64,000 nt of DNA from a bacterium (GCA_030649135.1 JAUSGI010000004.1:32001-96000); one strand, 5' to 3'; positions 49,673-62,131 are shown, counted from the stretch's first letter. The notes: generated from the sequence alone by a model not told the origin. Made by a program: numbers and translations.

Positions 49673-50356
49673 TCAGTACGGGAAGTATCCCCGTGTATAG
49701 AACAAAATCCTGTCCGGCATGGCCTTGTCCGCATTCGCTAAGAGGTACTTCTCGAGGGCTCCCGCCGTATTGCAGACGGAAGAGTCTTTGATGCAGAACT
49801 CATGGACCCAGGTCATGCCACCGTCGCTGAAGGCGACATGCGTTGCCGTGCCGGGTATGTCATGCTCGAGGGCGCCACGCGCGTCGAGACGTCCGCCAGC
49901 GGACATCTCGTCCATGTCTTTCTTGCTCATCCGCAGAGACATGTTCACCTGAAGCCAGCCATCAGGGCTGGTATAGGCGAACCAGTGGAACTTCTCGCCA
50001 TTGTACCAACCGACGCCCCAGCCGACCGACCTGTCGAGAGCTCGACCTTTGTCATCGTGGGTCTCGAAGGCAAGGAACTGATACCTTACCCAGGGGTGCA
50101 GTTGGGGTGCCAATGCCCGGAGCCGTTGGTCTTGCAGGTCCATGATAATGGTGTCGTTGCGCGCCTTCTCGGTAGGGGTGAGCTCCGGTGCCGTCTCGAG
50201 TTGAGCGGCATTTGCCGAGGCAGCATTCGCCCGGGGGGCGGCTGCCCGTATGACCGGTTCGGGCTGTGGCGACGGCGGTGTTGAGCTGATACTTTGGTGC
50301 ACTACGACTGTGAGTAGGCCTAAGCTAACAAGCAGTGCGCCACGCGACAGTGTCAT
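49673..50356 (-). CDS. hypothetical secreted protein (G+C-rich)
   Basis: signal peptide; GAGGAGG SD; Pro/Ala-rich linker; W-rich domain. Confidence 0.45.
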   Translation of the reverse strand: MTLSRGALLVSLGLLTVVVHQSISSTPPSPQPEPVIRAAAPRANAASANAAQLETAPELTPTEKARNDTIIMDLQDQRLRALAPQLHPWVRYQFLAFETHDDKGRALDRSVGWGVGWYNGEKFHWFAYTSPDGWLQVNMSLRMSKKDMDEMSAGGRLDARGALEHDIPGTATHVAFSDGGMTWVHEFCIKDSSVCNTAGALEKYLLANADKAMPDRILFYTRGYFPY

Positions 50357-50635: not shown

Positions 50636-50881
50636 TTAGTTTTTAATCTCAAAGACTTTTCTTTTCGACGTGGCGCCAGAGATAAGTCGTACTTGAGAGT
50701 GTGGAACCTTGAAGTGCTCTGCGATAAGTTTCGTAATGGCTTGGTTCGCCTTGCCTTCCGCCGGCCTTTCTTTAACCGAGACGGTATACCAATCTTCCGC
50801 GTCCGGCATGAGTTTCAATGGCGGAGGAATAACTTTATTTTCTTTTGCGTTTGGCTTGGCTTTTACAAAAATTCTGGTCAT
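50636..50881 (-). CDS. DUF167 (YggU/UPF0235) family protein
   Basis: KAKPNAKENKV...ERPAEGKANQAITKLIAEHFKVPHSQVRLISGATSKRKVFEI. Confidence 0.7.
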   Translation of the reverse strand: MTRIFVKAKPNAKENKVIPPPLKLMPDAEDWYTVSVKERPAEGKANQAITKLIAEHFKVPHSQVRLISGATSKRKVFEIKN

Positions 50882-50888
50882 TCAATTT

Positions 50889-50918
50889 CCTTATTCTCCT
50901 ATTCGAGCGAATTAGAGA
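50889..50918 (+). repeat. ArsR-associated imperfect palindromic repeat, copy 1
   Basis: CTTATTCTCCTATTCGAGCGAATTAGAGAT; arms ATTCTCCTATTCG / CGAATTAGAGAAT. Confidence 0.8.
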
Positions 50919-51162
50919 TATATTTTGAGATGTGGTGGGGTTGCGAGGGGAGTCGGTACCACATTTGAAGGCCCCTTTGTTCTTTCTCCACAATATCCAC
51001 TGCGGCCAGCACATGGAGATGTTTGGAAGTAGCCTTGAATGAGAGTTTGATATGCTCGGCGATGTCCCCGACGGTAGCTTCCTTGCTCTTTTTCAAATAT
51101 TTAATAATAGTCAGGCGTCTCTGATTGGCTAAAGCTTTAAGTAGTCTTTCGAGATTTTTCAT
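50899..51162 (-). CDS. ArsR/SmtB-family transcriptional regulator
   Basis: LKALANQRRLTIIKYL...TVGDIAEHIKLSFKATSKHLHVL wHTH; the last three codons lie inside repeat copy 1. Confidence 0.8.
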   Translation of the reverse strand: MKNLERLLKALANQRRLTIIKYLKKSKEATVGDIAEHIKLSFKATSKHLHVLAAVDIVEKEQRGLQMWYRLPSQPHHISKYISNSLE

Positions 51163-51185
51163 ACCTATATTGTAAACTGCTTTGG

Positions 51186-51223
51186 CTTATTCTCCTATTC
51201 GCGCGAATTAGAGAATAGATTTG
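51186..51223 (+). repeat. palindromic repeat copy 2, in the divergent arsR / 51260 promoter region
   Basis: CTTATTCTCCTATTCGCGCGAATTAGAGAATAGATTTG. Confidence 0.8.
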
Positions 51224-51259
51224 GATGATTTGATGATAAAATAAGGGAGGAGGTGTCAT

Positions 51260-51535
51260 ATGGATGAAGGTGAGCAGGCAACCGAGTTCTGGTTGGACAA
51301 GAATCTCAGTTGTACCGAGTTCATCAAGGCGTTTGAGTCTCACTTTCAGGGAGGTCGGGTCGAAAGCCTATCCTTGGTGCGGGTTGCCAAGCCGGGGTAC
51401 ATGCTTTTCCATCTGAGTGTGCCGCTCGAGAGAAAAGGGGAGCTCCTCGTGTTTCTCCATGAGTACGCCGAGACACGCGACGCCGACAGCGATTGGAAGA
51501 CGGCGGGCGTCCATCCATTCAATCTATTTTCATAA
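51260..51535 (+). CDS. small acidic protein, paralog A
   Basis: EFWLDKNLSCTEFIKAFESHFQGG; leader TGATAAAATAAGGGAGGAGGTGTCATATG is shared with paralog B. Confidence 0.45.
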   Translation: MDEGEQATEFWLDKNLSCTEFIKAFESHFQGGRVESLSLVRVAKPGYMLFHLSVPLERKGELLVFLHEYAETRDADSDWKTAGVHPFNLFS

Positions 51536-51589
51536 CCACGCGTCGGACGGAGCATCGCGCTCCGTCCGACGCGGTTTTGTTTTTAGTAA

Positions 51590-52438
51590 TTATAGATTGC
51601 TGGGATTTGCAGGGTTTGGAGAGTGCGGAGATTTTCTTCCCACGATATAACCAAGTACTCCACCCACGAGAAGGAGAGCTGCCATCAATATTATTTTAGT
51701 ATCGAGATTTTTTTGTGGAGTAGATGAAGTAGGTGACGCGGTGGCATAAACTACCATGTTGCCTGTGTTTGGTTCAGTCGCACCATTTCCCTTAACACTC
51801 CTGATGATATTTGTATCGTAATATTTTATCCCCTTAACGACAGAAAGATTCTCTTTGACATACCCACCTTCGAAACAATCTCCCTTGTTGGAAATGAGAA
51901 TGGCCATAGCATCTGTATTGGGAATTCCATATCCCTCAAAGATATGAGGTTGATCTTCGGCACAGCCACGGAAGTCCAGTTTGGCTACTTCTTTATTGTC
52001 TTGAGTAAGAGTGGCGCGGAATTCAGTCCAATATTTCTCACCATTCTCAATGCGTTCGGAAAGGACTTCGACACGAACAGCAATATTATTATTTTTTAGA
52101 CTGACACTACCGAGATATGGAAGACTTTGGTAAGTATCTGTAATAAATTGACTGTACTTTTGTTCCCCACTTTCACCAGAGAAGAATTGTTGGAATACCT
52201 CGTCACAAGTTTTCACCTCAACGTCTTTGTTTGTGGCGAGGGAAATCGAATGAATAATAGACGGGCATCCTTTCCCACCCATATCACTTTCAAGATAATA
52301 GACTGAATTGTCCGAAGCTTTATAGGCAATTTGAGAAAGGTATGTTGGCCCACCTACAGTGGCCAAGACCTGCTCGCTTGAAATTAAGAGTAATAATGTG
52401 GCCAAGGAAAAAGATAACAATATATAATTTTTATTCAT
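51590..52438 (-). CDS. hypothetical secreted / C-terminally anchored protein
   Basis: signal peptide; C-terminal TM plus a PNPANPSNL tail. Confidence 0.45.
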   Translation of the reverse strand: MNKNYILLSFSLATLLLLISSEQVLATVGGPTYLSQIAYKASDNSVYYLESDMGGKGCPSIIHSISLATNKDVEVKTCDEVFQQFFSGESGEQKYSQFITDTYQSLPYLGSVSLKNNNIAVRVEVLSERIENGEKYWTEFRATLTQDNKEVAKLDFRGCAEDQPHIFEGYGIPNTDAMAILISNKGDCFEGGYVKENLSVVKGIKYYDTNIIRSVKGNGATEPNTGNMVVYATASPTSSTPQKNLDTKIILMAALLLVGGVLGYIVGRKSPHSPNPANPSNL

Positions 52439-52486
52439 ACCATAATGATAACATCTGGGGCTTTGTTTTATATAGGATTGGTTCGG

Positions 52487-52524
52487 CTTATTCTCCTATT
52501 CGAGCGAATTAGAGAATAGATTTG
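52487..52524 (+). repeat. palindromic repeat copy 3, upstream of the 51590..52438(-) gene
   Basis: differs from copy 2 at one position (A vs C). Confidence 0.8.
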
Positions 52525-52534
52525 TATAAATAGA

Positions 52535-52568
52535 AAATCGGGTTCCGCGAGGCGCGGAACCCGATTCG
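52535..52568. terminator. perfect GC hairpin
   Basis: cgggttccgcgaggcgcggaacccg. Confidence 0.5.
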
Positions 52569-52590
52569 AATCGTCGGCCAGTCTTCTATG

Positions 52591-52947
52591 CTACAGGACG
52601 GTCCACTCGTCTGGGTCGGGCTGCTTGAAGCGCCCAGCGAAAGGGCCATCTGGCCGCCGCATGGCGTGCTGTTTGTGGGGAATGACGTGTTCCCCAAGCG
52701 CGCGAAGAAGCTCGTGCGGGGAACTCGCATACCCGGCGCTGACTTTCCGCTCGAAGCGTCGCCCAAGGTGCAGGACGAATGCTTCGGAGTTGCCCATCTT
52801 GATATCATCGTCCTCTTCCCAGATGAACACTCTTCGCTTTACCGTGGGGTTGCCCGGCACTGGGTCGACACCTACATAGGCATCGACGATATACCCCAGT
52901 ACCTCACCTTTTCCCAACCAATCGTAGAAGCCGATCTCGTTGGCCAT
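52591..52947 (-). CDS. hypothetical protein (G+C-rich)
   Basis: GGGAGG SD and TATAAT upstream; a plus-strand ORF 52588..52968 overlaps it and is the alternative. Confidence 0.35.
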   Translation of the reverse strand: MANEIGFYDWLGKGEVLGYIVDAYVGVDPVPGNPTVKRRVFIWEEDDDIKMGNSEAFVLHLGRRFERKVSAGYASSPHELLRALGEHVIPHKQHAMRRPDGPFAGRFKQPDPDEWTVL

Positions 52948-53063
52948 GTGGCCTCCCGGCGCGCCTGAATTTCATTCCTCTCATATTATACCATATATCA
53001 ATATATTATACAAGTAGATAAGGTGCTCATTTTTTAGTGATAAGGTATGAGAGGAGGTGTGAT

Positions 53064-53330
53064 ATGAGAGATGATATGCGGGTGAGCGAGTTCAGATTAG
53101 ATGAAGATTTCGACCGTGACGAGTTCGTAAAGGCGTTCAAGACCTACTTCGAGGGAGGTGATGCCAAAGATCTGGAAGTTGTTCCCGACGCGATTTTGTT
53201 TTATAAAGGACGAGTGTCGCTTATTCTACTATTCGCACGAATTAGAGATGTAGAGGGGGGGGATTGGGTTGACAATTCAAATAATATATCATACACTTTT
53301 GAAAGAGCCACATGCGTGGCTATGCTCTAA
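53064..53330 (+). CDS. small acidic protein, paralog B
   Basis: EFRLDEDFDRDEFVKAFKTYFEGG aligns to paralog A; leader GAGGAGGTGTGATATG is conserved; repeat copy 4 and a G8 tract lie in its 3' end. Confidence 0.45.
   Translation: MRDDMRVSEFRLDEDFDRDEFVKAFKTYFEGGDAKDLEVVPDAILFYKGRVSLILLFARIRDVEGGDWVDNSNNISYTFERATCVAML
53220..53250 (+). repeat. palindromic repeat copy 4, degenerate, inside the 3' end of the 53064 ORF
   Basis: CTTATTCTACTATTCGCACGAATTAGAGATG. Confidence 0.7.
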
Positions 53331-53358: not shown

Positions 53359-54039
53359 ATGATGGTAATCAGGGGAGGCATCCCCGCGATCGTGCGAAAC
53401 GATGCTGGTTGCTACGAAGGCAACCTAGTGTCGTACTTCCAGATCCTCTGGAACCACGCACAGAACCTCAACAACCCGTACCACAACTTCCGGCACATCT
53501 GCCACGTCCTGTGGTTGTGCCACGAGGCGTGCCTGTACTACACGAAGTACTACCCGAGCGAGCTGACATTGCGGCAGAAGAGGAATCTACTCATCGCAGC
53601 GCTTTTCCACGACTTCGATCACACCGGCAAGTCGGGACCCGACTGGATGAACATCGCGATAGCGATGAGGGCCATCGATCGGTTCCTTCTGCCGGAGGAC
53701 CGTCCGTACCGCATGGACATCTCCCGTCTGGTTTCCTTCACGGAGTATCCGTACGCCGTGGGTCCAGAGGATCTCGACCTCTCGGCACTCATCCTCCGCG
53801 ATGCGGACATGGGCCAGGCGTTCAGCGTGGCCTGGATCCAGCAGGTCATCTTCGGTCTTGCTGCCGAGTGGGGCAAGACTCCGCTCGAGGTGGTCAAGAT
53901 GCAAGGGCCGTTCCACGAGAAGGTTCGTTTCCACACCAAGTGGGGGCAGAAGATGTTCCCCGCTTCGGATGTGAGAACGAAGATCAATGAGGCCACTGAG
54001 CTTCTCGAACTGCTCACCACCGAACCCGTTCTGGCCTGA
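53359..54039 (+). CDS. HD-domain phosphohydrolase with class-I cyclic-nucleotide-PDE-like motifs (G+C-rich)
   Basis: PYHNFRHICHV and LFHDFDHTG (cf. PDE YHNxxHAADV / HDxDHPG); 226 aa. Confidence 0.5.
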   Translation: MMVIRGGIPAIVRNDAGCYEGNLVSYFQILWNHAQNLNNPYHNFRHICHVLWLCHEACLYYTKYYPSELTLRQKRNLLIAALFHDFDHTGKSGPDWMNIAIAMRAIDRFLLPEDRPYRMDISRLVSFTEYPYAVGPEDLDLSALILRDADMGQAFSVAWIQQVIFGLAAEWGKTPLEVVKMQGPFHEKVRFHTKWGQKMFPASDVRTKINEATELLELLTTEPVLA

Positions 54040-54098: not shown

Positions 54099-54109
54099 TA
54101 GAGAGTAGG

Positions 54110-54138
54110 GTTTGTAAGTGCCCCAAATTTGTGGGATA
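54110..54138 (+). promoter_or_regulatory. conserved promoter/operator motif, copy 1 (dinB)
   Basis: GTTTGTAAGTGCCCCAAATTTGTGGGATA; a -10 TGTATAAT follows. Confidence 0.55.
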
Positions 54139-54177: not shown

Positions 54178-55410
54178 ATGGCGCGAGAAAAGACCATTTT
54201 ACATATGGATGGAGATGCCTTCTTCGTCGCCTGTGAGGTCTCGAAGAATCCCAAGCTCAAGGGTAAAGCAGTGGTGACAGGCGAGGAGCGCGGGATAGTC
54301 TCGGCCCTCTCATACGAAGCGAAGGCGCTTGGGGTAGTTAGAGGCATGCCGATATTTTCCTTGCGCAAATCGTTTCCAAGTGTCTTAGTGCTGCCGGGAG
54401 ATTATGCTTGTTACGCGCGACTCTCGGGAGAAATGTTTGACATCGTGAGGAGGTATGCCGACGAGGTCGAGGAGTACAGTATCGATGAGTGTTTCGCCGA
54501 TCTCTCCGGCCTAGATAAGCCGCTTAAAATGAGTTATAGAGAAATTGCGGAGCGGATAAAGAAAGAAATCGAAAGCGAACTTAGACTCTCTGTCTCTATC
54601 GGGCTCGGGCCCTCAAAGGGGCTCGCCAAGGTGGCGTCGAAGTGGCAGAAGCCCAATGGTCTTACAGTGATAGAAGCAAAGACGGCCCCAGATTTTCTCA
54701 AAAAGACTCCGATTGAGAAAATCTGGGGCATCGGCCCGCGCACAGCAGAGTTTCTAAAGAAGAAAGGAATAGGAACTGCCGGCGAGTTCGCCTCGCGTGA
54801 ACTCGCCTGGGTCAGAAAGGAACTTTCCAAACCTTACGAAGTTATTTGGAGAGAGCTCAACGGTGAATACATCATGGAGTTAGACCCCTTGCCGAAGACT
54901 GTCTATTCCTCTGTCCAGAAGACAAGGACATTTCACCCGGCGACAGGGGACAAAGTCTTTCTCCTCTCCGAACTTTCTAAGCATGTGGAAGAAGCGTGCC
55001 GCAAGGCGAGGTACTACCACCTCGTACCGAAGAAGTTTTCTTTTTTCCTCAAGAGCCAGAGCTTCAAATATTTCTCTTACAATATAAATCTTCCCTCGCC
55101 CACTAATGCTCCGGAGACGCTGGTCGCTCTAGTCCGTAAACATTTCAAAGAAGTTTGGAGAGAGGGAATACTCTTCCGTACCACTGGAGTGGTGTTGCAA
55201 GAGCTTGCTCCGAGAGCGGCAATGCAGGGAGATTTGTTCGGAGGCTCCGATAGAGCCGGTAAGTTTGAAAAGATTCATGGTCAGATCGACGCTCTGGAAG
55301 AGAAGTTCGGCAAGTCGGTAGTCTATCTCGCCTCCACTCACCAGTCCCTGAAGCGTAAAAAGGTCGGCACCGACTCCGACGACCTCGACCGCAACCTGCT
55401 GTTTTTGTGA
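54178..55410 (+). CDS. dinB: Y-family DNA polymerase IV
   Basis: ILHMDGDAFFVACE...; little-finger domain; ~410 aa. Confidence 0.9.
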   Translation: MAREKTILHMDGDAFFVACEVSKNPKLKGKAVVTGEERGIVSALSYEAKALGVVRGMPIFSLRKSFPSVLVLPGDYACYARLSGEMFDIVRRYADEVEEYSIDECFADLSGLDKPLKMSYREIAERIKKEIESELRLSVSIGLGPSKGLAKVASKWQKPNGLTVIEAKTAPDFLKKTPIEKIWGIGPRTAEFLKKKGIGTAGEFASRELAWVRKELSKPYEVIWRELNGEYIMELDPLPKTVYSSVQKTRTFHPATGDKVFLLSELSKHVEEACRKARYYHLVPKKFSFFLKSQSFKYFSYNINLPSPTNAPETLVALVRKHFKEVWREGILFRTTGVVLQELAPRAAMQGDLFGGSDRAGKFEKIHGQIDALEEKFGKSVVYLASTHQSLKRKKVGTDSDDLDRNLLFL

Positions 55411-55412
55411 GG

Positions 55413-55442
55413 GTTTGTTTTAAGCCAAAATTTGTGGGATTA
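55413..55442 (+). promoter_or_regulatory. conserved promoter/operator motif, copy 2 (ATPase gene)
   Basis: GTTTGTTTTAAGCCAAAATTTGTGGGATTA. Confidence 0.55.
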
Positions 55443-55460
55443 TTTTGTGCAAGTATATTT

Positions 55461-56606
55461 ATGGATGTAGAAATAAAGAAACAACCAAAAACCAGCATTA
55501 CTGAGGATATTGATTGTGTAATTAAGCTTGAGCCACTTACAATTTTTGCTGGGAATAATAATTCAGGTAAGACTCATTTGATTAACGCTATAGGGAAAAA
55601 ACTGTCTGAGAATGACATAAATGTTGTGCATATCCCAAGTGAGAGGATACTTGTAGAGAATGAATTGAAGACAGGAGCAGAAAAGGATCCATTAAGAGCG
55701 GCTCTCGGTGATTTGATTGAGTTTGCTTTTGATGCCGACAGTTCAATCTCTAGTGATGTTTCTGATATCTCAGTAATACTTCCTGCTGAATTTATACAAT
55801 ATGGTATTGAGAATATAGATATTTCGGTAAAGACAAACACTCTCACTAACGATGAATATAAAAAAGCTTTAAAAGATGCTCACATAAAAAAGCTTATCGA
55901 TTCCATAGTTATATCTGACAAATACTGTGGAGTTGAGGACATAAGTCCATCAAATGTGGGTCAAGGAACACAAAGAATGATTGTCGTTTCTCTAATTAGA
56001 TATCTACAGCGTAAAAAATTTGAGAAGGATGGTCGAACAAGTAAACCAACATATATTATTTTTGAAGAACCAGAGATATACCTTCACCCAAAAATGAAGG
56101 CAACCTTGTATGCACTAATTCAAGCCATAGCTAATGATGGAAGATTGAATACTAAAGTTATCTTAACTACCCACGACCCATACTTTATTGATATGGGTAG
56201 AAATGCAAAAATTTATCGGGTCTTTAGGGATCCTTTGAAGAATTTTTCTACACAATTAATGGATGTACAAAAAGACGTATTACTGTACCCATCTTCTGCA
56301 GAAATAAACTATATTGTATTTGAGCAGGTTAGCCCTACTTATTTACTTGAATTGTATGAAAGTAAAAAACAAGAAACTGAATTAAAGCTTGGAAAGAAGT
56401 TGGGAGGTCTTAAGTATTATGAATTCGATCTAGCTTTATTTAATAAAATTGGAGAACCTCAATCTTCTACTGATGATGATGGACATCCCGTTACGTTTAT
56501 AACTCGGATAAGGCATGATATGGCACACCCCTCTACCTCCATATTAGATTCTTTTGAGTCTAGAGGAAAGGAAGCTATTGAAAAATTAAGAAATTACAAA
56601 GCTTAA
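55461..56606 (+). CDS. AAA15/AAA21-type ABC-like ATPase (PtuA/OLD-N-terminal-like)
   Basis: Walker A GNNNSGKT; Q-loop/signature-like NVGQGTQR; Walker B TYIIFEEPEIYLHP; H-loop LTTHDP. Confidence 0.7.
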   Translation: MDVEIKKQPKTSITEDIDCVIKLEPLTIFAGNNNSGKTHLINAIGKKLSENDINVVHIPSERILVENELKTGAEKDPLRAALGDLIEFAFDADSSISSDVSDISVILPAEFIQYGIENIDISVKTNTLTNDEYKKALKDAHIKKLIDSIVISDKYCGVEDISPSNVGQGTQRMIVVSLIRYLQRKKFEKDGRTSKPTYIIFEEPEIYLHPKMKATLYALIQAIANDGRLNTKVILTTHDPYFIDMGRNAKIYRVFRDPLKNFSTQLMDVQKDVLLYPSSAEINYIVFEQVSPTYLLELYESKKQETELKLGKKLGGLKYYEFDLALFNKIGEPQSSTDDDGHPVTFITRIRHDMAHPSTSILDSFESRGKEAIEKLRNYKA

Positions 56607-56610
56607 ATCT

Positions 56611-56640
56611 GTTTGTAAAACTCTAAAATTTGTGGGATAT
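56611..56640 (+). promoter_or_regulatory. conserved promoter/operator motif, copy 3 (HNH gene)
   Basis: GTTTGTAAAACTCTAAAATTTGTGGGATAT followed by a GGAGG SD. Confidence 0.55.
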
Positions 56641-56653
56641 TTGGAGGACAAAC

Positions 56654-57841
56654 ATGGAAGATGAAATAAAGCGATATTTTGAGGGCATAGATCTTGATAT
56701 TCGGAAGCAATCTCGGGGCTATTCACGCTTCATGGATCAGAAAGTTGCTCCAGATGTCCTGTCTTTTATTGCTGATTCTGTAGTCAATTCTATGGATGGA
56801 AAGGAGCCTGGTACCACCTTTACCATTGGTGATGTATGGGAGTTTCCTTACTTTGTAAAAAATACAGAAGCTGTATTCGGGAAACCCTCTCCAGAAAATG
56901 AAACCACGGAATCTGAGTATGATAAATTTATCGCCCAGCCCTTAAAAACCCTTGCTTTTGCTAAGATTCTGGAAGAAGAAAAAGTTGGAGGGAAAAATAC
57001 ATATAAGGTTCTAAGGCCCGATATTTTGGAGTATATTTCTCAAAGCGAGAAAAACGCCTTTATATTTTTAGTCCTCTATATTGAAAAGGTTTTATCTGAC
57101 AGTGGATTCATAAAAAACTTCGAGGAATATAGGGAAAAGGCGCAGTCAAATAAACTAAAACCAGAAGATCTTGAAATATTAAAAAAAAGATTCCAAAAAT
57201 TCATTTTGGGCAATACCAATATAAATGGCGTAATAGAAATAAATAGAGTATTTCCGAAAGTTCTAAATCCTTATGCAGCTTCACATCAAATTCCAGGAAT
57301 AGAAAGGGGGCACATAACTTCTGGTAGATTTATTTACCCAGATCTCATGTATAACCGAGAAAATTTTAGGGACATTGGAAAAGACAAGACTGTAAGTAGA
57401 CAAGAAGCGTTAAGAGAAATTACTCAGCAGCCAGAAGTTGTTGAATATCGAGTTCAAAAAGCAAAAAGTATTATACGGCGCCATCATTCAAGTAGTGAGG
57501 TTAAGGATAGCTTGGCAGTAGGCGAAGCGACTCAGGTTCATCATATTTTTTCAGACCATGAATTTCCTGAAATATCTGATTATATTGAAAACCTTATTTT
57601 ACTAACACCTCAGCAGCACAACACAAGAGCTCATCCAAAAAATAAAACAAATACCGTTGACGCAGAGTATCAAAGGGAATGCTTGTTATCTAAAATTGAT
57701 TCGATTGAGATGTCCGTAAGTAAGCGAGACAGCCTGTATTCTAAGGAAAGATTTATACACGTTGTGAATATTGGCTATGAACTTGATCTCTCGACAAATA
57801 CTAGTTTTGAAGAATTGAGAGATATTATTCGAAAGAGATAG
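56654..57841 (+). CDS. HNH-motif protein (PtuB-like partner) with a large N-terminal domain of unknown function
   Basis: C-terminal region QVHHIFSDHEFPEISDYIENLILLTPQQHNTRAH (HH...N...H); start at MEDEIKRYF (the listed ORF uses an upstream TTG). Confidence 0.55.
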   Translation: MEDEIKRYFEGIDLDIRKQSRGYSRFMDQKVAPDVLSFIADSVVNSMDGKEPGTTFTIGDVWEFPYFVKNTEAVFGKPSPENETTESEYDKFIAQPLKTLAFAKILEEEKVGGKNTYKVLRPDILEYISQSEKNAFIFLVLYIEKVLSDSGFIKNFEEYREKAQSNKLKPEDLEILKKRFQKFILGNTNINGVIEINRVFPKVLNPYAASHQIPGIERGHITSGRFIYPDLMYNRENFRDIGKDKTVSRQEALREITQQPEVVEYRVQKAKSIIRRHHSSSEVKDSLAVGEATQVHHIFSDHEFPEISDYIENLILLTPQQHNTRAHPKNKTNTVDAEYQRECLLSKIDSIEMSVSKRDSLYSKERFIHVVNIGYELDLSTNTSFEELRDIIRKR

Positions 57842-57845
57842 TTTT

Positions 57846-60365
57846 CTAGCGATTTATGCCAAAAAAGAATACTGAATTATTGTCGATGTTTAAAGATCTG
57901 GTACCGTGATTCCTTGCTACTCGATAAAATTGGGTGAATTCGTCTGTTCCAAAATAATCAAGGTCTTTTAGAGTTATCTTAGCTCCGGGTTCTTTTAGGG
58001 TGAGGATTGCCACAGACCCATCAACAAGCGTGTTCTCTGGTAAAAATGAAGCTCTGGGAGCATAGGTCAGGTTTGGCACCAAGACGCTATTTTCTTTATT
58101 CCAAAACTTAGAGATTGATAACCCGTCTAACGAATCAACATAAGAGTCATAATTTGGAATGTTCAGGATCTCATTTCGTCCGATATTTCTTGATTTCAAT
58201 ATTCTTATTTTCCCCTTGTTTTTTGTTATCTTTTTTGTAATTTGTCGATCTCTGTAAGATGTAAATATATTGAATCGAAGTTTTTTTGCAACGAAGTCAA
58301 AGAATTCATTTCTGTACACCAACCAGTAAGGAAAATCTTTCGAACAAATATAAGATTGATCTTTATAACCAATTTCGTTTTTTACATAAGACTCAACGAG
58401 AGTCCGGGCCCCTTTATTACGAGTATTGATAATCAAACTGATTGTCTCAATCTTCACACCCCTGAACCCTTTTTCTCCATAGTCTGTGATTTTTTCAATG
58501 GCAAATGACGAAGCAAGTTCTCTTGTTTTGTTAAATTCGGGTGCTGATAGAAAACTTTTGGGAATAATAAGACCTACGGTATCTCCTTGTTGCATTGCTT
58601 TCTCGAGAAAAAAAGAAAATAGATTATTTGTTTCGGCATTATATTTATTCTTCTTATAAGTGTTTAGGAGAACTTTATTTTCAGATATATCTCCGAATGG
58701 TGGATTGCCAATAACGATATCGTATCTTTTAGATTGGCCAAATAAATTAGTCTCTCCATGCAATAGAAAATCTGCGTTAATTAAATTGATCTTGATATTT
58801 TTTGGAACATCAAGTTTTTTTAGTAAAAGTTTAAGAATCTCAATTGCATTTTTGTCGATATCAACTACATCAATAGTTACCTCCTTAACTGTTTTATATT
58901 TTTGAACAAGAAGCGGGAGAAAATTACCAGCACCGACTGATGGTTCTAATATAGAAAGTTTTTCAAACTTTGATACATCAGGAAGATCTTTTACTATAGT
59001 GAAGCAAATGTCCTGTCTGGTGTAATACGCGGCGTGCTGAAGACGTTGGGCATTTGAAAGCTCGACGATTTTAGCTAATTCGGGGTAGCTAAAATTTTGC
59101 ATATTCTCTTCGAGAAAAGTCTTAATATTTTCTTCTATATTAAGCCTTTCATCTTGGATTAATTTTTTTATTTGGATTTCATTATTTTCAACATTTCTAA
59201 GCTTTGACTTGATATTTTTAGCTATACCGTTGAATATAATTGTGGGGACTGCCTCACCTAGTGATTGTCTTATATTTATCTCTTCTTTCTTGAGAATTTT
59301 CCTCTTTTCTTCATTTGACAACTTATTTAATTCATCAAGCGGAGTAGATACCCAATTAAAAGAATCTGGTACGGACATCATTCTCATTAACTCTCTAATA
59401 CTAAATACCCTGTTATCTTTTGGATGAATGGTTGCTTGGCTCGCAAATATATCGTTTCGGGTATGTATACAAGGAGCAACTTTATCCCAATAACATCGTG
59501 AGTATTTATCTCCGTTCTTGTTTTCATTGTGTACAATCTTTCCGTTTATGATTTGGTGAGGTCGCTTTTTGGCATCAGTATTATCAAACGCAGATTGTCC
59601 CTCCTTGGTATTCTCAATCCAAGAAAGCATATGCTCAGCGTACGGACGAAAATTGTGATAGATGTCCTTTTTATCAATCTCACCCATATTTTTAAGAGAT
59701 GAAAGGTTGCCTATCGTATCACGCAAGGTACCACCATCTTTCAATACTGGCATTAGATCAAGAGGTGTAACTTCTTGAATATCTTTTCGTACTCCTATAA
59801 CGAGTGTTCGGGTTCTACTCGATGGATTACCATAATCTTTGAAATTGATTACTTGATAGTGGATGTTATATTTACCTCCAAGATTTACTTCAATTGCTTC
59901 ACGAATTTGTTTTTGTTTCTTATCGATGTCAGTGCAGAGTGTAGATAGAAAAGCCCTCACATTCTCAAATATAAAAACTTTCGGTCTAATTTCATCTACA
60001 ATTTTTATTGATTCAACGACAAGAGAATTTCGTTCAAGCTCATCCCTTTTTTTGTGATTGGCTACAGACATACCCTGACATGGGGGTGTTGCCAATAAAA
60101 CTTCAACTTCTTTTAAACCTTGCTTTGATTTCCAGAGATCAATTTCTGAAAATATTTTTTCTTGAGTGGCTTTTTTTGTGATGTCATCAGCAATATAACC
60201 ACTTGGATATAAACACTTATTATTATGTCTTTGCACATCCAAACGTCTGTTCATAAGTTCAACAGTTGCAACACAATCAAATCCTTCTTTAGAAAAACCA
60301 TAGCAACCAACGCCGGCGCTACTGAATAAACTTATATATGTTAATTTTTTATTTTGGTTTTTCAT
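57846..60365 (-). CDS. fused DNA methyltransferase: N-terminal C5-cytosine MTase plus C-terminal N6-adenine (gamma-class) MTase
   Basis: C5 motifs: I (FSSAGVG), IV (PPCQGMS), VI (FENVRAF), X-like (GEAVP). N6A motifs: I (LEPSVGAGNF), IV (NPPFG). 839 aa. Confidence 0.75.
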   Translation of the reverse strand: MKNQNKKLTYISLFSSAGVGCYGFSKEGFDCVATVELMNRRLDVQRHNNKCLYPSGYIADDITKKATQEKIFSEIDLWKSKQGLKEVEVLLATPPCQGMSVANHKKRDELERNSLVVESIKIVDEIRPKVFIFENVRAFLSTLCTDIDKKQKQIREAIEVNLGGKYNIHYQVINFKDYGNPSSRTRTLVIGVRKDIQEVTPLDLMPVLKDGGTLRDTIGNLSSLKNMGEIDKKDIYHNFRPYAEHMLSWIENTKEGQSAFDNTDAKKRPHQIINGKIVHNENKNGDKYSRCYWDKVAPCIHTRNDIFASQATIHPKDNRVFSIRELMRMMSVPDSFNWVSTPLDELNKLSNEEKRKILKKEEINIRQSLGEAVPTIIFNGIAKNIKSKLRNVENNEIQIKKLIQDERLNIEENIKTFLEENMQNFSYPELAKIVELSNAQRLQHAAYYTRQDICFTIVKDLPDVSKFEKLSILEPSVGAGNFLPLLVQKYKTVKEVTIDVVDIDKNAIEILKLLLKKLDVPKNIKINLINADFLLHGETNLFGQSKRYDIVIGNPPFGDISENKVLLNTYKKNKYNAETNNLFSFFLEKAMQQGDTVGLIIPKSFLSAPEFNKTRELASSFAIEKITDYGEKGFRGVKIETISLIINTRNKGARTLVESYVKNEIGYKDQSYICSKDFPYWLVYRNEFFDFVAKKLRFNIFTSYRDRQITKKITKNKGKIRILKSRNIGRNEILNIPNYDSYVDSLDGLSISKFWNKENSVLVPNLTYAPRASFLPENTLVDGSVAILTLKEPGAKITLKDLDYFGTDEFTQFYRVARNHGTRSLNIDNNSVFFFGINR

Positions 60366-60369
60366 GAAT

Positions 60370-60984
60370 TTATAGTGTTCTAATTATTTTTTCTACTATA
60401 CCCCTAATCTCAACTTGTTTTCGGTAAAAAGGTTTGAGGTTTTTATTTGCAGGCTGTAATCTGATTTTCCCTTTTTCCTTATATATTTTTTTAAGTGTTA
60501 CTTGATTGTCGTCAATGATGGCCACGGCAGTTTGTCCATTATCAGCTACGTTTTGAGATCGAATGACAACAATATCTCCATCAAAGATTCCATCCTCAAT
60601 CATACTGTCTCCTTTAACCTGTAGCGCATAGTGTTGAAAAGGTAGTTTGATATCACTTCTCGGGACGGTAATTGTTTTTTCGTTTATTTCCATTGCTTCA
60701 ATAGGCTCTCCAGCTGCAATACTACCAAGCAGTGGAATTTCTACGGTCGATTTTTCTTTCATCGTAGAAATAGTTCTTGGTTGATTTTCTTCTTTTGTGA
60801 GTAAACCCTTTTTTTGTAAGTGTTTAATGTGGAAATGGGCTGTTGAGACGGAAGCAAGTTTAAAATTTTGCTGTATTTCTACTAAAGAGGGAGCATACCC
60901 ATTCTTTTTTTGTGATTGCTTCACAAAATCTAGAACCATTTTTTGTTTTTTAGTAAGCATAGATATTGACATACTATTTATCAC
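60370..60984 (-). CDS. lexA: LexA repressor (S24 peptidase)
   Basis: LexA DNA-binding domain (LTKKQKMVLDFV...GYAPSLVEI); AAGEP Ala-Gly cleavage site; GDSM Ser and TLKK Lys. Confidence 0.85.
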   Translation of the reverse strand: MINSMSISMLTKKQKMVLDFVKQSQKKNGYAPSLVEIQQNFKLASVSTAHFHIKHLQKKGLLTKEENQPRTISTMKEKSTVEIPLLGSIAAGEPIEAMEINEKTITVPRSDIKLPFQHYALQVKGDSMIEDGIFDGDIVVIRSQNVADNGQTAVAIIDDNQVTLKKIYKEKGKIRLQPANKNLKPFYRKQVEIRGIVEKIIRTL

Positions 60985-61085
60985 GGAGGTATACTTCCAT
61001 TATAGAAGGAAAATAGAAGGTCTACAAGACCTACTTATCCACACCTCCTATATAAAGATCGAATTAGTAATAGTTCTAAAAAAAT

Positions 61086-61292
61086 ATGGCAAAACCTAAA
61101 TACATAGCAAAGTCTGGTCAGCCTTGGGCTCCAGCTGAAGTAAAACAGTTGAAAAGCATGGGAGGCAGGGTGCCTACTGGCGTTATTGGTTTGAAACTTC
61201 AGAGACCAGTTGCAGGAGTACGGGCAAAAGCTCAAGAAATCGGCATGAGTTTGAAGCCGGTAAATAAATCGCCACGATCAAAGCTTAAATAG
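61086..61292 (+). CDS. hypothetical small basic protein
   Basis: 68 aa; no motif recognised. Confidence 0.3.
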   Translation: MAKPKYIAKSGQPWAPAEVKQLKSMGGRVPTGVIGLKLQRPVAGVRAKAQEIGMSLKPVNKSPRSKLK

Positions 61293-61410
61293 GTAAACCT
61301 GAGCAAAAGGAATGGTAGTAAGTCGCAAGAGCGGTTATCGCGGTATAATTTATTTATGTCTGAATATTACAACCAAAACAGAATAGAATCTTGGAATTAC
61401 ATATCCTTGT

Positions 61411-61650
61411 ATGAACCAAGTTGAACGAGATTTAACATATAGATTGGATGCACTGAAAGCTACTTGTAATCAATACGGTCTACAGAGTTATGAGTGCAAG
61501 ACTTCTATGGAGATATGGCAAGATCAACATGACTGGAATGTAATGTATGAAAAATATGGTGATTACTTTGGTATAGGCTCTTTGACTGCCTTATTAATTG
61601 TTTTCTTCTATTATTTGTGGTTAAGTTCACTAAATTTAAGTAATAAATAG
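61411..61650 (+). CDS. hypothetical small protein with C-terminal TM
   Basis: 79 aa; hydrophobic tail. Confidence 0.3.
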   Translation: MNQVERDLTYRLDALKATCNQYGLQSYECKTSMEIWQDQHDWNVMYEKYGDYFGIGSLTALLIVFFYYLWLSSLNLSNK

Positions 61651-61651
61651 T

Positions 61652-62131
61652 ATGGATAAAAATAATACAAATGAATTGAGTGCTGTTTTATCTGGAGTAG
61701 CCGGGGAGTATTTTGTTGCCGGTGAGTTATCGAGAAGAGGATTTCTTGCTTCGATCACCCTTAGAAATACTAAAGGGGTTGATATCCAATGTTCAAATGG
61801 AGACGCTAGTAAATCAGTCAGCATACAAGTAAAAACAAATAAGGGTTCATCTAGAAAATGGGTTATGAACCGCAAGGCCGAGGATTATTATGCTGATAAT
61901 CTTTTCTATATTTTTGTGAATCTAAATGACAATAAAAAATCTCCAGATTATTTTGTGGTACCGAGTAAAGTCGCTGCGGAATATACAAAAAAGAATCATA
62001 TTGAATGGCTAGGAAGGCCAAGACGTGATGGTAATCCTCACAAAGATAACGACATGAGAAAATTTGTTGACTTAGAAGAAAGGTACTTAAATCGCTGGGA
62101 ATTGCTTGGGCTGGATATTCAAATTATATAG
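61652..62131 (+). CDS. hypothetical protein, possible PD-(D/E)xK-fold nuclease
   Basis: GVDIQCSN...SVSIQVKTN resembles a D...(E/Q)xK core; weak. Confidence 0.3.
   Translation: MDKNNTNELSAVLSGVAGEYFVAGELSRRGFLASITLRNTKGVDIQCSNGDASKSVSIQVKTNKGSSRKWVMNRKAEDYYADNLFYIFVNLNDNKKSPDYFVVPSKVAAEYTKKNHIEWLGRPRRDGNPHKDNDMRKFVDLEERYLNRWELLGLDIQII

What the first reader, a model, noticed from the sequence alone, without database searches (positions are those of the whole stretch)
50889..53330. Four copies of a 30-38-bp imperfect palindrome around an ArsR regulator and two paralogous small acidic proteins
CTTATTCTCCTATTCG(A/C)GCGAATTAGAGAATAGATTTG occurs at 50889, 51186, 52487 and 53220. The arms ATTCTCCTATTCG / CGAATTAGAGAAT form an imperfect palindrome of operator size.

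- Copy 2 sits exactly in the divergent promoter region between arsR (-) and the small protein at 51260 (+).
- Copy 3 precedes the surface-protein gene at 51590-52438 (-).
- Copy 1 contributes the last codons and stop of arsR.
- Copy 4 lies inside the 3' end of the 53064 paralog.

The two small proteins share the EFxLDxxxxxxEFxKAFxxxFxGG block and a near-identical 5' leader (GAGGAGGTGT[C/G]ATATG). The layout looks like a duplicated, ArsR-controlled module array. It could also be a family of recombination or insertion boundaries that spread cargo genes such as the G+C-rich PDE-like gene.
Basis: seen in the sequence. Interest (0 to 1): 0.7.

Follow-up and report, generated by a model that had tools for sequence, protein, structure and literature searches.

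The report
CPR-wide ArsR operator-promoter palindrome array
The four repeats are copies of a ~28-bp DNA signal that is almost identical across the ultrasmall Patescibacteria (CPR bacteria), nearly always brackets the gene of one small ArsR-type DNA-binding protein, and is most likely that protein's docking site on very compact promoters, a control circuit I found no description of.

Summary
There are four direct copies at 50891-50918, 51187-51214, 52488-52515 and 53221-53248, and none elsewhere in 64 kb.

The element is not local. The core T-CTCTAATTCG-NN-CGAAT-NNNN-GAATAG (minus strand) gave at least 119 exact hits in public genomes, 104 of them named as Patescibacteria lineages, each with unrelated flanks.

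It is tied to one gene, an 87-aa ArsR/SmtB-type winged-helix protein with no Cys and a near-invariant recognition helix. In 80 loci collected through the protein alone:
- the motif lies within 150 nt upstream of arsR in 61 of 74 loci
- it lies at or just past the stop codon in 54 of 78 loci

arsR looks leaderless: a -10 box ends exactly 6 nt before the ATG in 26 of 58 loci.

Other copies sit mostly just upstream of co-oriented genes, often accessory ones. Some lie in frame inside genes such as mnmA.

Best reading (0.6): an autoregulatory operator fused to compact promoters, spread by duplication of the promoter-operator module. No hairpin covariation, Rfam family, viral copy or recurrent neighbouring recombinase was found.

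Still open: bracketing copies share their variable centre, and 15% of copies lie between convergent genes. A recombination or cassette role is therefore not excluded (about 0.12). Binding is untested.

The parts
50891..50918 (-). Motif copy m1 (minus strand: aTCTCTAATTCG CT CGAAT AGGA GAATAAg). It encodes the last codons and the stop of arsR. It ends 12 nt before the ATG of the DUF167 gene.
   Evidence: The arsR C-terminus ...ISNSLE*, encoded by the motif, is conserved in at least 80% of 120 orthologues.
51187..51214 (-). Motif copy m2 (centre CG), in the divergent region between arsR and the 91-aa ORF. The palindrome centre (51202.5) lies 40.5 nt upstream of the arsR ATG.
   Evidence: The motif lies within 150 nt upstream of arsR in 61 of 74 protein-ascertained loci.
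51169..51174 (-). TACAAT, a -10-like box ending 6 nt before the arsR ATG (51162). It implies a leaderless arsR mRNA.
   Evidence: Sequence. The same geometry holds in 26 of 58 distinct arsR loci, against about 5 per position as background. An SD-like sequence occurs in only 5 of 58. This is inferred, not mapped.
50899..51162 (-). arsR: an 87-aa ArsR/SmtB-family winged-helix protein with no Cys and no canonical metal-site ligand set.
   Evidence: Pfam HTH_5 1.1e-9. PDB sequence hits include Lmo1102, HlyU, SmtB, CzrA, NolR and AspA. The AF2 model has pLDDT 84.7; Foldseek finds HlyU, NolR, AspA and CadC at E about 1e-4. There are 292 homologue clusters.
52488..52515 (-). Motif copy m3 (centre CT). 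Its core is identical to m1 over 29 nt, and together with its flanks it is an 88%-identical 56-nt duplicate of the m2 region. It lies upstream of the 282-aa ORF. A TATATA box at 52469-52474 (-) sits about 30 nt downstream of the palindrome centre.
53221..53248 (-). Motif copy m4 (centre TG, AGTA variant, which gives TAGAAT at 53223-53228 on the minus strand). It lies 270 nt upstream of the G+C-rich 118-aa gene and overlaps the read-through tail of the decayed small-protein copy.
   Evidence: L122 has the equivalent copy 120 nt upstream of the homologous gene.
50636..50881 (-). DUF167/YggU gene directly downstream of m1. The pair arsR-[motif]-DUF167 is conserved in L111, L122 and L127.
51260..51535 (+). 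91-aa acidic ORFan transcribed divergently from arsR. It has its own extended -10 (TGATAAAAT, 51234-51242), a strong SD and a terminator at 51539-51573.
51590..52438 (-). It has no Pfam hit. It is preceded by m3 and, together with the 91-aa ORF, forms the 1.3-kb segment absent from the syntenic locus L122.
52591..52947 (-). G+C-rich (0.59) 118-aa gene of unknown function, with its terminator at 52535-52567 (-). It lies between m4 and m3. Its homologue in L122 is likewise flanked by two motif copies.
53064..53202 (+). Truncated remnant of a second copy of the 91-aa gene: leader, about 40 codons and 18 nt of terminator tail.

Best explanation
**What it is.** The repeat is the DNA target (operator) of the adjacent 87-aa ArsR/SmtB-type winged-helix protein. 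It is built into, or placed directly upstream of, very compact promoters. The minus strand reads T-CTCTAATTCG-NN-CGAAT-NNNN-GAATAG.

**The circuit** is conserved across Patescibacteria:
- one copy sits on the arsR promoter, giving autoregulation
- a second copy sits at the arsR stop codon, in front of the next gene
- further copies stand in front of a small, lineage-variable set of other genes

**How it most likely works** (inferred from the family and from the overlap with the promoter). A dimer occupies the invariant ATTCG-N2-CGAAT core plus its flanks and blocks RNA polymerase. arsR and many target genes are transcribed as leaderless mRNAs. The -10 box is either inside the right arm of the motif (TAGAAT/GAGAAT, with the ATG 7-10 nt further on) or about 20 nt downstream, as at window m2 and m3.

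**In the window:**
- m2 controls arsR and possibly the divergent 91-aa ORF
- m1 controls the DUF167 gene
- m3 controls the 282-aa gene
- m4 controls the 118-aa gene

New sites arise mainly by duplication of the whole promoter-operator module; m3 is a copy of m2 with its flanks.

**Shown:** conservation, linkage to arsR, promoter geometry and orientation bias.

**Inferred:** binding, repression, and the signal, which is unknown because the protein has no recognisable sensor site.
For: **Linkage to arsR**
- 34 of 119 motif-ascertained loci carry an orthologue (53-79% identical) next to the motif, usually bracketed by two direct copies 280-370 bp apart.
- In 80 loci collected through the protein alone, a copy lies within 150 nt upstream in 61 of 74 and at or after the stop in 54 of 78. 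Other copies are about 5-fold enriched within 1 kb.
- arsR is the only recurrent neighbour: no Pfam family is seen more than twice among 112 neighbours.

**Protein**
- Bona fide ArsR/SmtB fold.
- The recognition helix LSFKATSKHL is at least 95% conserved over 120 orthologues, which matches the invariant core ATTCG..CGAAT (100% in 147 sites).
- Lineages with wing sequence RSSQ tend to have CCCT(T/C) instead of CTCTA in both copies.

**Promoter geometry**
- A -10-like hexamer ends exactly 6 nt before the arsR ATG in 26 of 58 loci, against about 5 per position as background. 15 are TGn-extended. SD-like sequences occur in 5 of 58.
- The palindrome centre lies 20-45 nt upstream of that ATG.
- At other sites ATG is enriched 7-10 nt after the motif (8-10 sites per offset, against a background of mostly 1-5). 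This also holds in the SD-less T19 variants.
- Strong -10-like hexamers occur inside the motif in 46 of 275 sites, with a second peak 20 nt downstream.

**Orientation**
- The motif is co-oriented with flanking tandem genes 84:7, as expected of a directional promoter module.

**Not RNA or hairpin**
- No covariation.
- Weak DNA fold, z about -1.5.
- No Rfam family.

**Module duplication**
- m2 and m3 are 88% identical over 56 nt.
- The flank TAAGCCAAA is also found upstream of arsR in L120.
Against: - No binding or expression data exist; the protein-site link rests on genomic association alone.
- About 15% of copies lie between convergent genes. These include arsR 3' copies in L090 and L106. About 15% lie inside genes in frame (MnmA, IscS, Dus, TrmD, GT4), where a promoter-operator role is not obvious.
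- The distance from the palindrome to the arsR start is not phased: it ranges from 20 to 75 nt.
- The site is asymmetric. The left arm is 88-100% conserved, the four inner positions of the right arm are free, and an extra GAATAG unit follows 8 nt later. A simple symmetric dimer does not explain this.
- The two copies bracketing one arsR share the variable central dinucleotide far more often than chance: 32 of 56 against 10.6 expected. Plain operator function does not predict this.
- The target gene set is heterogeneous.
- In five loci the motif forms the tip of a long hairpin within a strongly structured RNA-like region.
Confidence: 0.6

Rival explanations
1. The motif is a site-specific recombination or cassette boundary, comparable to an integron or a dif module. 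Genes or small operons are captured or excised by recombination between direct copies. The ArsR-like protein would serve as an architectural or directionality factor, or be a resident cassette itself. A host recombinase would act in trans.
For: - Arrays of direct copies bound single genes or small operons, often accessory ones: window m4 to m1; L122 with 4 copies; L161 with MBL-[m]-hicBA-[m]-SET-[m]-DinB; L166 with arsR-[m]-relBE-like-[m][m]; L176.
- The window carries a 1.3-kb motif-bounded segment that is absent at the same place in the syntenic locus L122.
- Bracketing copies share the variable centre in 32 of 56 loci against 10.6 expected, and also share rare core variants. Partner sites that need an identical overlap region would behave this way.
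- An 11-6-11 layout can be drawn: ATTCTCCTATT-CGNNCG-AATTAGAGAAT.
- m1 and m3 are identical over 29 nt.
Against: - No integrase, resolvase or transposase recurs among 112 genes within 3 kb of arsR, and none lies in the window region.
- There are 0 copies in 2.9 million viral contigs.
- Gene content next to arsR also differs where there is no motif, for example between DUF167 and RecG in the window, L122 and L127.
- The m2/m3 similarity extends into both flanks (56 nt), which fits duplication of a promoter region rather than exchange inside a core.
- The mnmA copy is ancient and decays by point mutation.
- The site shows fixed geometry with -10 boxes and start codons.
Confidence: 0.12
2. The motif is a selfish, REP/MITE-like palindromic repeat. 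It spreads through CPR genomes by an unknown copy-paste mechanism and has no regulatory role of its own. The ArsR-like gene would be its associated binder, analogous to a RAYT within a REPtron.
For: - Boundaries are sharp and flanks unrelated at more than 119 loci, with near-identical sequence.
- The distribution over tandem, convergent and divergent intergenic regions is 91/21/11, with no evident depletion of convergent spacers. I did not compute a background.
- In-frame copies occur inside housekeeping genes, in both orientations in mnmA (L039 against L108).
- The protein gene is flanked by the repeats.
- The copies bracketing a single arsR show concerted evolution.
Against: - An 87-aa wHTH protein has no catalytic domain, and no HUH or DDE gene is associated.
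- Copy number is low: 4 in 64 kb, all at arsR, and about 1 per 20-40 kb away from arsR.
- The sequence is conserved across classes rather than being species-specific.
- There is a strong orientation bias (84:7) and a fixed spacing to start codons and -10 boxes.
- The mnmA copy is inherited and decays slowly rather than being recently inserted.
Confidence: 0.1
3. The element acts as RNA. When transcribed in the minus-strand sense it folds into a hairpin that hides the AGGAG Shine-Dalgarno sequence. It would then work as a translational operator, thermometer or processing site, perhaps bound by the ArsR-like protein.
For: - The sense-strand RNA hairpin has a folding energy of -11 kcal/mol with z about -3 for m2 and m3. 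A G·U pair makes the sense strand better than the antisense strand.
- The motif is co-oriented with genes 84:7.
- AGGAG lies 9-12 nt before many start codons.
- In five loci the motif caps a long hairpin in a highly structured region with z -5.6.
Against: - There is no compensatory covariation: 45 of 500 shuffles reach the observed score. One stem position is a mismatch in 108 of 147 sites.
- 35% of unbiased sites have T19, which destroys both the SD and a stem pair with no change on the other arm.
- arsR and many targets appear leaderless, so the motif would not be transcribed with them.
- Sequence rather than pairing is conserved.
- No Rfam match.
Confidence: 0.07
4. The sites are centromere-like or nucleoid-organising loading sites for a small winged-helix protein, in the manner of AspA or ParB-parS, rather than gene-specific operators.
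For: - AspA, the ArsR-like centromere-binding protein of pNOB8, is among the best sequence and fold matches.
- Like parS, the sites are invariant, few per genome, clustered around the gene of the binding protein, and tolerated in frame inside genes.
- The extra direct GAATAG unit could nucleate spreading.
Against: - No ParA-type or other partner gene recurs nearby.
- Orientation bias and fixed spacing to -10 boxes and start codons point to promoters.
- Copies are dispersed on several contigs of one MAG, for example five contigs of JBGPES01.
Confidence: 0.04

Closest known systems
Autoregulated ArsR/SmtB-family repressors with 12-2-12-type imperfect inverted-repeat operators, especially members without a metal-binding site (NolR, HlyU, PagR)
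   Same: - Same fold and Pfam family.
- Small presumed dimeric wHTH protein.
- Operator-sized imperfect palindrome on its own promoter.
- The NolR operator, as I recall it, contains ATTAG, as this motif does. That is from memory and untested.
   Different: - No Cys and no canonical metal or thiol sensor site.
- The operator is near-invariant across a whole superphylum and is asymmetric, with an extra GAATAG unit.
- A second copy sits at the gene's own stop codon in about 70% of orthologues.
- Promoters are leaderless.
- Copies also lie in frame inside genes.
CIRCE/HrcA (and comparable ancient operator-repressor pairs such as the LexA boxes)
   Same: An inverted repeat is conserved almost to the letter across very distant lineages together with its cognate repressor gene, and a copy sits at the repressor's own operon.
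   Different: - CIRCE controls a fixed, orthologous regulon (groE, dnaK). Here the target set is heterogeneous and lineage-variable.
- The CIRCE spacer is free, whereas here almost all 28 positions are constrained.
REP elements and REPtrons (a RAYT transposase gene flanked by REPs)
   Same: Short imperfect palindromes lie dispersed in intergenic spacers of operons, and the gene of the presumed binding protein is flanked by the repeats.
   Different: - No HUH/Y1 transposase.
- The flanking copies are direct, not inverted.
- A handful of copies rather than hundreds.
- Sequence is shared across classes rather than being species-specific.
Integron attC arrays and Acinetobacter pdif (XerC/D) modules
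   Same: - Direct, imperfectly palindromic sites bound single genes or small operons, including TA modules.
- Genes are co-oriented.
- A motif-bounded indel separates related genomes.
   Different: - No IntI or other recurrent recombinase.
- The site is 28 nt and sequence-invariant, whereas attC is 57-141 bp and structure-defined.
- No resemblance to dif arms (judged from memory).
- pdif sites alternate in orientation.
- The motif carries promoter features.
Putative mobile promoters (identical upstream regions reused in front of unrelated genes)
   Same: The same promoter-operator block stands in front of non-homologous genes. m3 is a 56-nt duplicate of the arsR upstream region.
   Different: Described mobile promoters are genome-specific and longer. 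This unit is 28-56 nt, is tied to one regulator, and is conserved over a superphylum.

Membership tests
ArsR/SmtB family transcription regulators | Winged helix-turn-helix of the HTH_5 type with alpha-alpha-alpha-alpha-beta-beta-alpha topology | tested here: met
   - HTH_5 at 38.4 bits against a cut-off of 22.
- phmmer hits to SmtB, CzrA, HlyU and NolR at 1e-6 to 1e-4.
- AF2 model with pLDDT 84.7 and topology H-E-H-H-E-E-H.
- Foldseek probability 1.00 to HlyU, NolR and CadC.
ArsR/SmtB family transcription regulators | Inducer-sensing site: alpha3/alpha3N Cys motif, alpha5 His/Asp/Glu set, or a redox Cys pair | tested here: not met
   The window protein has no Cys. No DxHx10Hx2E-type set is present in the C-terminal helix (sequence; conservation). 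This was judged by eye against motifs recalled from memory.
ArsR/SmtB family transcription regulators | Imperfect inverted-repeat operator overlapping or adjoining the regulator's own promoter | tested here: met
   - 14-2-14 imperfect palindrome within 150 nt upstream in 61 of 74 loci.
- It sits immediately upstream of, or overlaps, the -10 box that ends 6 nt before the ATG.
ArsR/SmtB family transcription regulators | The protein binds that operator and represses transcription | not testable with these tools
   This needs EMSA or footprinting and expression data. Here there is only genomic association, plus a hint of covariation between the protein wing and the operator.
Integron (attC cassette array) | IntI tyrosine recombinase with attI next to the array | tested here: not met
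   No recombinase family appears among 112 neighbours of arsR or among the window genes between 45 and 61 kb.
Integron (attC cassette array) | attC: 57-141 bp, conserved in structure but not sequence, with R''-L''/L'-R' boxes and extrahelical bases | tested here: not met
   The site is 28-30 nt and sequence-invariant. It shows no covariation and a weak ssDNA fold.
REP/RAYT (REPtron) | Y1 HUH transposase gene flanked by inverted REPs; tens to hundreds of copies per genome | tested here: not met
   The flanked gene is an 87-aa wHTH and the copies are direct. There are 4 copies in 64 kb.
dif / Xer-exploiting modules | 28-bp 11-6-11 site with conserved XerC/XerD arms; one chromosomal copy at the terminus; module sites alternate in orientation | tested here: inconclusive
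   An 11-6-11 layout can be drawn, and the centres of bracketing copies match. However, there are many copies per genome, all direct, and I see no similarity to dif arms (judged from memory). Xer binding was not tested.
ParB-parS / AspA-type centromere | Partner NTPase (ParA-like) gene in the same operon; spreading from a palindromic site | tested here: not met
   No ParA-like or other recurrent partner gene is present. Spreading is not testable here.
Structured RNA family (Rfam) or regulatory hairpin | Match to a curated model, or base-pair covariation | tested here: not met
   No Rfam hit covers the motif. The covariation score is reached by 45 of 500 shuffles.

The most novel reading that the evidence does not exclude
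The motif would be the recombination site of a previously unrecognised cassette-capture system in Patescibacteria, functionally like an integron. Accessory genes would be inserted at and excised between direct 28-nt sites: TA modules, a SET-domain protein, the G+C-rich small genes, the 282-aa-protein segment. The sites' variable 2-6-nt centres must match. The small ArsR-like protein would mark or organise the sites and a host recombinase would act in trans. The sites would also double as portable promoters.
Probability: 0.1. Interest if true: 0.9.

Novelty: new variant of a known kind. Interest (0 to 1): 0.66.

Why it matters
Almost nothing is known about gene regulation in Patescibacteria. 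These bacteria make up a large share of bacterial diversity, have tiny genomes and have very few cultured members.

**What this offers.** A near-invariant 28-nt cis-element with a cognate minimal regulator, present across many of their lineages. It would be:
- a rare, directly testable regulatory circuit for the group
- evidence that leaderless, extended -10 promoters are in routine use there
- a ready-made regulated promoter part for the emerging genetic systems

**Hints at physiology.** The motif recurs at mnmA, iscS/iscU, a Cys-rich 600-aa protein, RNA-modification genes and TA or accessory genes. This may point to what these organisms choose to regulate.

**The open issues could reveal more.** Three features remain unexplained: the bracketing architecture, the matching centres of bracketing copies, and the in-frame and convergent copies. 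They could uncover a second role in genome plasticity.

Tried and rejected
- **Chance or local duplication only:** rejected. There are 0 matches in shuffles and at least 119 exact hits elsewhere.
- **Sequencing or assembly artefact:** rejected. Hits are lineage-restricted, come from many laboratories, and sit in coherent gene contexts.
- **Phage or MGE signature:** 0 hits in viral contigs.
- **Known RNA family:** none found.
- **Hairpin, cruciform or RNA thermometer:** no covariation, and the DNA fold is weak.
- **The AGGAG as the reason for conservation:** rejected. 35% of unbiased sites carry T19 and still keep start codons at +7.
- **The trailing TAG/TAA as a selected stop codon:** better explained as part of a conserved GAATAG unit.
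- **DNA-uptake sequence:** copy number is far too low.
- **dif:** many copies per genome on different contigs.
- **Replication-polar site:** in the window the motif follows local gene direction, on the strand opposite to the one favoured by positive GC skew.
- **Coherent functional regulon:** only partial. mnmA, iscS/U, RluB-type, CYTH, NUDIX and Mur ligases recur, but no family dominates.
- **Clean 30-bp insertion in mnmA:** not supported. The loop is only 3-9 aa longer than in motif-free MnmA, and decayed versions are widespread.
- **Look-up of the window's ArsR by exact sequence:** failed.
- **Simple sigma-70 scan:** does not flag the motif promoters because they lack a -35 match.
- **The Logan contig that spans exactly m2 to m3:** I treat this as an assembly break, not a circle. 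Its ends differ at the motif centre.
- **Literature:** four full-text searches and one review found no description of the motif or of this regulator in CPR.

Full report
**1. The observation**

The 28-nt core TTATTCTCCTATTCGNGCGAATTAGAGA occurs at 50891, 51187 and 52488 with no mismatch and at 53221 with two. All four copies are on the same strand, and none is expected by chance (family D1). A profile HMM built later from 182 sites finds nothing else in the 64-kb window, and each copy scores best on the minus strand.

- DUF167 gene at 50636-50881 (-)
- arsR at 50899-51162 (-), HTH_5 at 38.4 bits
- a 91-aa acidic ORF at 51260-51535 (+)
- a 282-aa ORF at 51590-52438 (-)
- a G+C-rich 118-aa ORF at 52591-52947 (-)
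- a PDE/HD-like gene at 53359-54039 (+)

The 'second paralog' at 53064 is a remnant. Homology covers the leader and about 40 codons. It resumes only in 18 nt of the terminator tail, where 53185-53202 matches 51566-51583 at 17 of 18 positions. The ORF therefore reads through junk into copy 4. The intact 91-aa protein has no relative among 5.8 billion proteins.

**2. The motif is a Patescibacteria-wide element**

Of these, 104 come from MAGs named as CPR lineages: Paceibacteria/Parcubacteria groups, Doudna-, Kerfeld-, Uhr-, Moran-, Nomura- and Zambryskibacteria, and records labelled Saccharibacteria. The remainder carry generic labels or, in 7 cases, labels from other phyla that I did not verify.

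The flanks are unrelated and the boundaries sharp. The 2.9 million viral contigs gave no hit. Rfam has no family covering the motif. Four full-text searches and one recent review turned up no description.

**3. It belongs to the small ArsR gene**

tblastn with the window's ArsR found orthologues (53-79% identical) next to the motif in 34 of the 119 loci. Usually two direct copies flank the gene, 280-370 bp apart.

To remove ascertainment through the motif, I collected 80 metagenomic loci through the protein alone. In these loci:
- a copy lies within 150 nt upstream of arsR in 61 of 74
- a copy lies at or just past the stop in 54 of 78, with about 7 more at 60-130 nt
- further copies are about 5-fold enriched within 1 kb
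- further copies are mostly co-oriented with arsR (33 against 7)

Nothing else recurs near arsR. Among 112 neighbouring proteins no Pfam family appears more than twice, and no recombinase or transposase is seen.

The protein is a genuine ArsR/SmtB winged helix. It has no Cys and no canonical metal-ligand set. Its recognition helix LSFKATSKHL is at least 95% conserved in 120 orthologues, and in this subfamily the C-terminus ...ISNSLE* is itself encoded by the 3' motif copy.

**4. Anatomy of the site**

From sites not ascertained by the exact pattern the minus-strand consensus is T-CTCTAATTCG-NN-CGAAT-NNNN-GAATAG.
- The core ATTCG..CGAAT is invariant in 147 distinct sites.
- The left arm is 88-100% conserved.
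- The four inner positions of the right arm vary freely (AGGA, AGTA, GGTA, AAGC and others).
- The distal GAATAG is conserved even when it cannot act as a -10 box.

The site is therefore asymmetric: an inverted pair followed by a third, direct GAAT(AG) unit 8 nt later.

A formal pair count finds no hairpin covariation. 45 of 500 shuffles reach the observed score, and one 'stem' position is a mismatch in 108 of 147 sites. Single-strand DNA folding is unremarkable. The sense-strand RNA hairpin is moderately stable, at -11 kcal/mol with z about -3, but it is not maintained by compensation.

**5. Promoter geometry**

Upstream of arsR, a -10-like hexamer (A2, T6, at least 4 of 6 matches) ends exactly 6 nt before the ATG in 26 of 58 distinct loci, against about 5 at any other offset. 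Fifteen carry a TGn extension. An SD-like sequence is present in only 5 of 58. arsR is therefore very probably transcribed as a leaderless mRNA.

The window fits this pattern. TACAAT at 51169-51174 (-) ends 6 nt before the ATG at 51162, and the palindrome centre lies at -40.5.

In other loci the -10 box is the motif's own right arm (TAGAAT or TACAAT), which places the centre at -20.5.

Across all sites:
- ATG is enriched 7-10 nt after the motif, with 8-10 sites per offset against a background of mostly 1-5.
- This holds in the T19 variants that have no Shine-Dalgarno sequence.
- Strong -10-like hexamers occur inside the motif in 46 of 275 sites, with a second peak 20 nt downstream.

In tandem gene pairs the motif is co-oriented with the genes 84:7. 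This is what a directional promoter module predicts and what a purely symmetric operator would not.

**6. What the copies stand in front of**

The gene set is heterogeneous. Recurrent members are:
- arsR itself
- mnmA
- cysteine desulfurase and IscU/NifU
- a Cys-rich protein of about 600 aa with no Pfam hit
- RluB-type pseudouridine synthases
- CYTH, NUDIX, DUF167/YggU, Mur ligases and GT4 glycosyltransferases

Some arrays precede accessory genes:
- L161: MBL-[m]-hicBA-[m]-SET-[m]-DinB
- L166: arsR-[m]-relBE-like-[m][m]
- L158: two arsR paralogues, each bracketed by copies

About 15% of copies are intragenic and in frame. In mnmA the motif encodes SLIRANRRI in a loop. Among 120 CPR MnmA homologues the loop ranges from intact to decayed versions (SLIRANGGI, ELGIRNKELRI, NSQILENIGI and others). 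This points to an old site eroding by point mutation. One genome has the site inverted (L108).

**7. The window in comparison**

L122 (ArsR 82% identical) is syntenic. Its order is motif, gc118 homologue, the same terminator, motif, arsR, motif, DUF167, and further on RecG. The window differs by an extra 1.3-kb segment between the terminator and arsR. That segment holds the 282-aa ORF and the 91-aa ORF and is bounded by m3 and m2.

m2 and m3 are 88% identical over 56 nt, including both flanks. The flank TAAGCCAAA is the native arsR upstream sequence in a relative, L120. I therefore read m3 as a duplicate of the arsR promoter-operator region.

L127 keeps arsR-DUF167...RecG but has a different gene set on both sides. 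Content between DUF167 and RecG also differs where there is no motif. The neighbourhood is thus generally fluid, and not only at motif boundaries.

**8. Interpretation**

The simplest account of sections 3 to 5 is a conserved autoregulatory circuit. The ArsR-type dimer binds the palindrome, which overlaps or abuts compact, largely leaderless promoters. One copy controls arsR. The copy at its stop codon controls the next gene, which is co-directional in 62 of 74 loci. Duplicated modules recruit further genes.

I infer repression rather than activation for two reasons: the family's usual behaviour, and the unphased position of the site from -20 to -45. The signal is unknown.

A tendency for lineages with wing sequence RSSQ to carry CCCT(T/C) arms in both copies hints at protein-site coevolution. 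I did not test this on a phylogeny.

**9. What this does not explain**

- The two copies bracketing one arsR share the variable central dinucleotide in 32 of 56 loci, against 10.6 ± 2.5 expected, and they share rare core variants. Possible causes are gene conversion, recent duplication, lineage-specific preference, or the identical-overlap rule of a recombination site.
- 21 of about 138 intergenic copies lie between convergent genes. These include arsR 3' copies in L090 and L106.
- The in-frame copies have no obvious promoter role.
- The third GAATAG unit is unexplained.
- In five loci the motif caps a long hairpin in a strongly structured region of about 150 nt, with z -5.6.

These points keep three alternatives alive: a recombination or cassette role, a REP-like selfish-repeat history, and an RNA-level role in some contexts.

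**10. Verdict**

The 'cargo-spreading boundary' idea remains a minority possibility.

I file the protein as an ArsR/SmtB-family member without a known sensor site. I file the system as a new variant of the regulator-operator kind, for four reasons:
- the near-invariance of the site across the superphylum
- the bracketing architecture around arsR
- the fusion to leaderless promoters
- the in-frame copies inside genes

All functional statements are inferences from sequence. The decisive experiments are listed under next steps.

Noticed in passing
window 54107-54137, 55410-55440, 56608-56638; LexA at 60370-60984 (-): A second repeat family, GTTTGT-N10-12-AAAATTTGTGGGAT, sits at the starts of three consecutive genes: DinB, an AAA_15 ATPase and a 403-aa protein with no Pfam hit. 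A LexA gene lies 4 kb away, next to a fused C5/N6 DNA methylase. The repeat is a candidate SOS-type operator.
   Followed up: partly
window 49673-50356, 52591-52947, 53359-54039 compared with 55407-62000: G+C content is mosaic. Three genes are at 0.58-0.60 (a 227-aa ORF, the 118-aa ORF and the PDE/HD-like gene) against a window mean of 0.46. A block at 0.33-0.36 holds the AAA_15 gene, the methylase and LexA. The region downstream of RecG looks like a variable island.
   Followed up: partly
L011:1322-1470(-), L085:3492-3640(+), also L062, L070, L114: In five genomes the motif forms the tip of a hairpin of about 70 nt. The hairpin lies inside a conserved, three-hairpin region of about 150 nt (MFE -56 to -61 kcal/mol, z -5.6) upstream of a 90-aa ORF. 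No Rfam family matches. This may be an undescribed leader or ncRNA.
   Followed up: partly
L026, L039, L041, L042, L083, L086, L108; proteins P0121-P0240: CPR MnmA proteins carry the motif in frame in the loop before ARVRYRQ, where it encodes SLIRANRRI. Homologues show a continuum from intact to decayed versions. Several loops look like tandem GAATTAG units (ELGIRNKELRI), inferred from the protein sequence only. L108 has the motif inverted, encoding FSYSRELEM.
   Followed up: partly
L161:3431-4925; L166:545-1206; L158:9922-13523: Toxin-antitoxin modules (hicBA and a relBE-like pair) and a SET-domain gene are each bracketed by motif copies. One contig carries two arsR paralogues, each with its own pair of copies.
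   Followed up: partly
L052:4043-5824(-), L165:10295-12097(+), and 10 further loci: A Cys-rich protein of about 590-600 aa (N-terminus ...CQNCxQNFVIEPEDFDFY...) with no Pfam hit is one of the most frequent genes directly downstream of the motif or next to arsR.
   Followed up: no
L205 (Logan contig, 1326 bp) = window 51191-52516: An independent assembly of what appears to be the same organism breaks exactly within copies m2 and m3, although the two copies share no 31-mer. This is probably an assembly effect of the palindrome. Its ends differ at the motif centre, so it is not evidence for a circle.
   Followed up: yes
window 53269-53297 (+): A near-consensus sigma-70 promoter (TTGACA-17-TACACT) lies between copy m4 and the PDE/HD-like gene. 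That gene therefore has its own promoter, independent of the motif.
   Followed up: no
L004:793-863, L016:6162-6232: In two Paceibacterota MAGs the arsR 3' motif copy is followed within about 55 nt by a tRNA gene rather than by a protein-coding gene.
   Followed up: no
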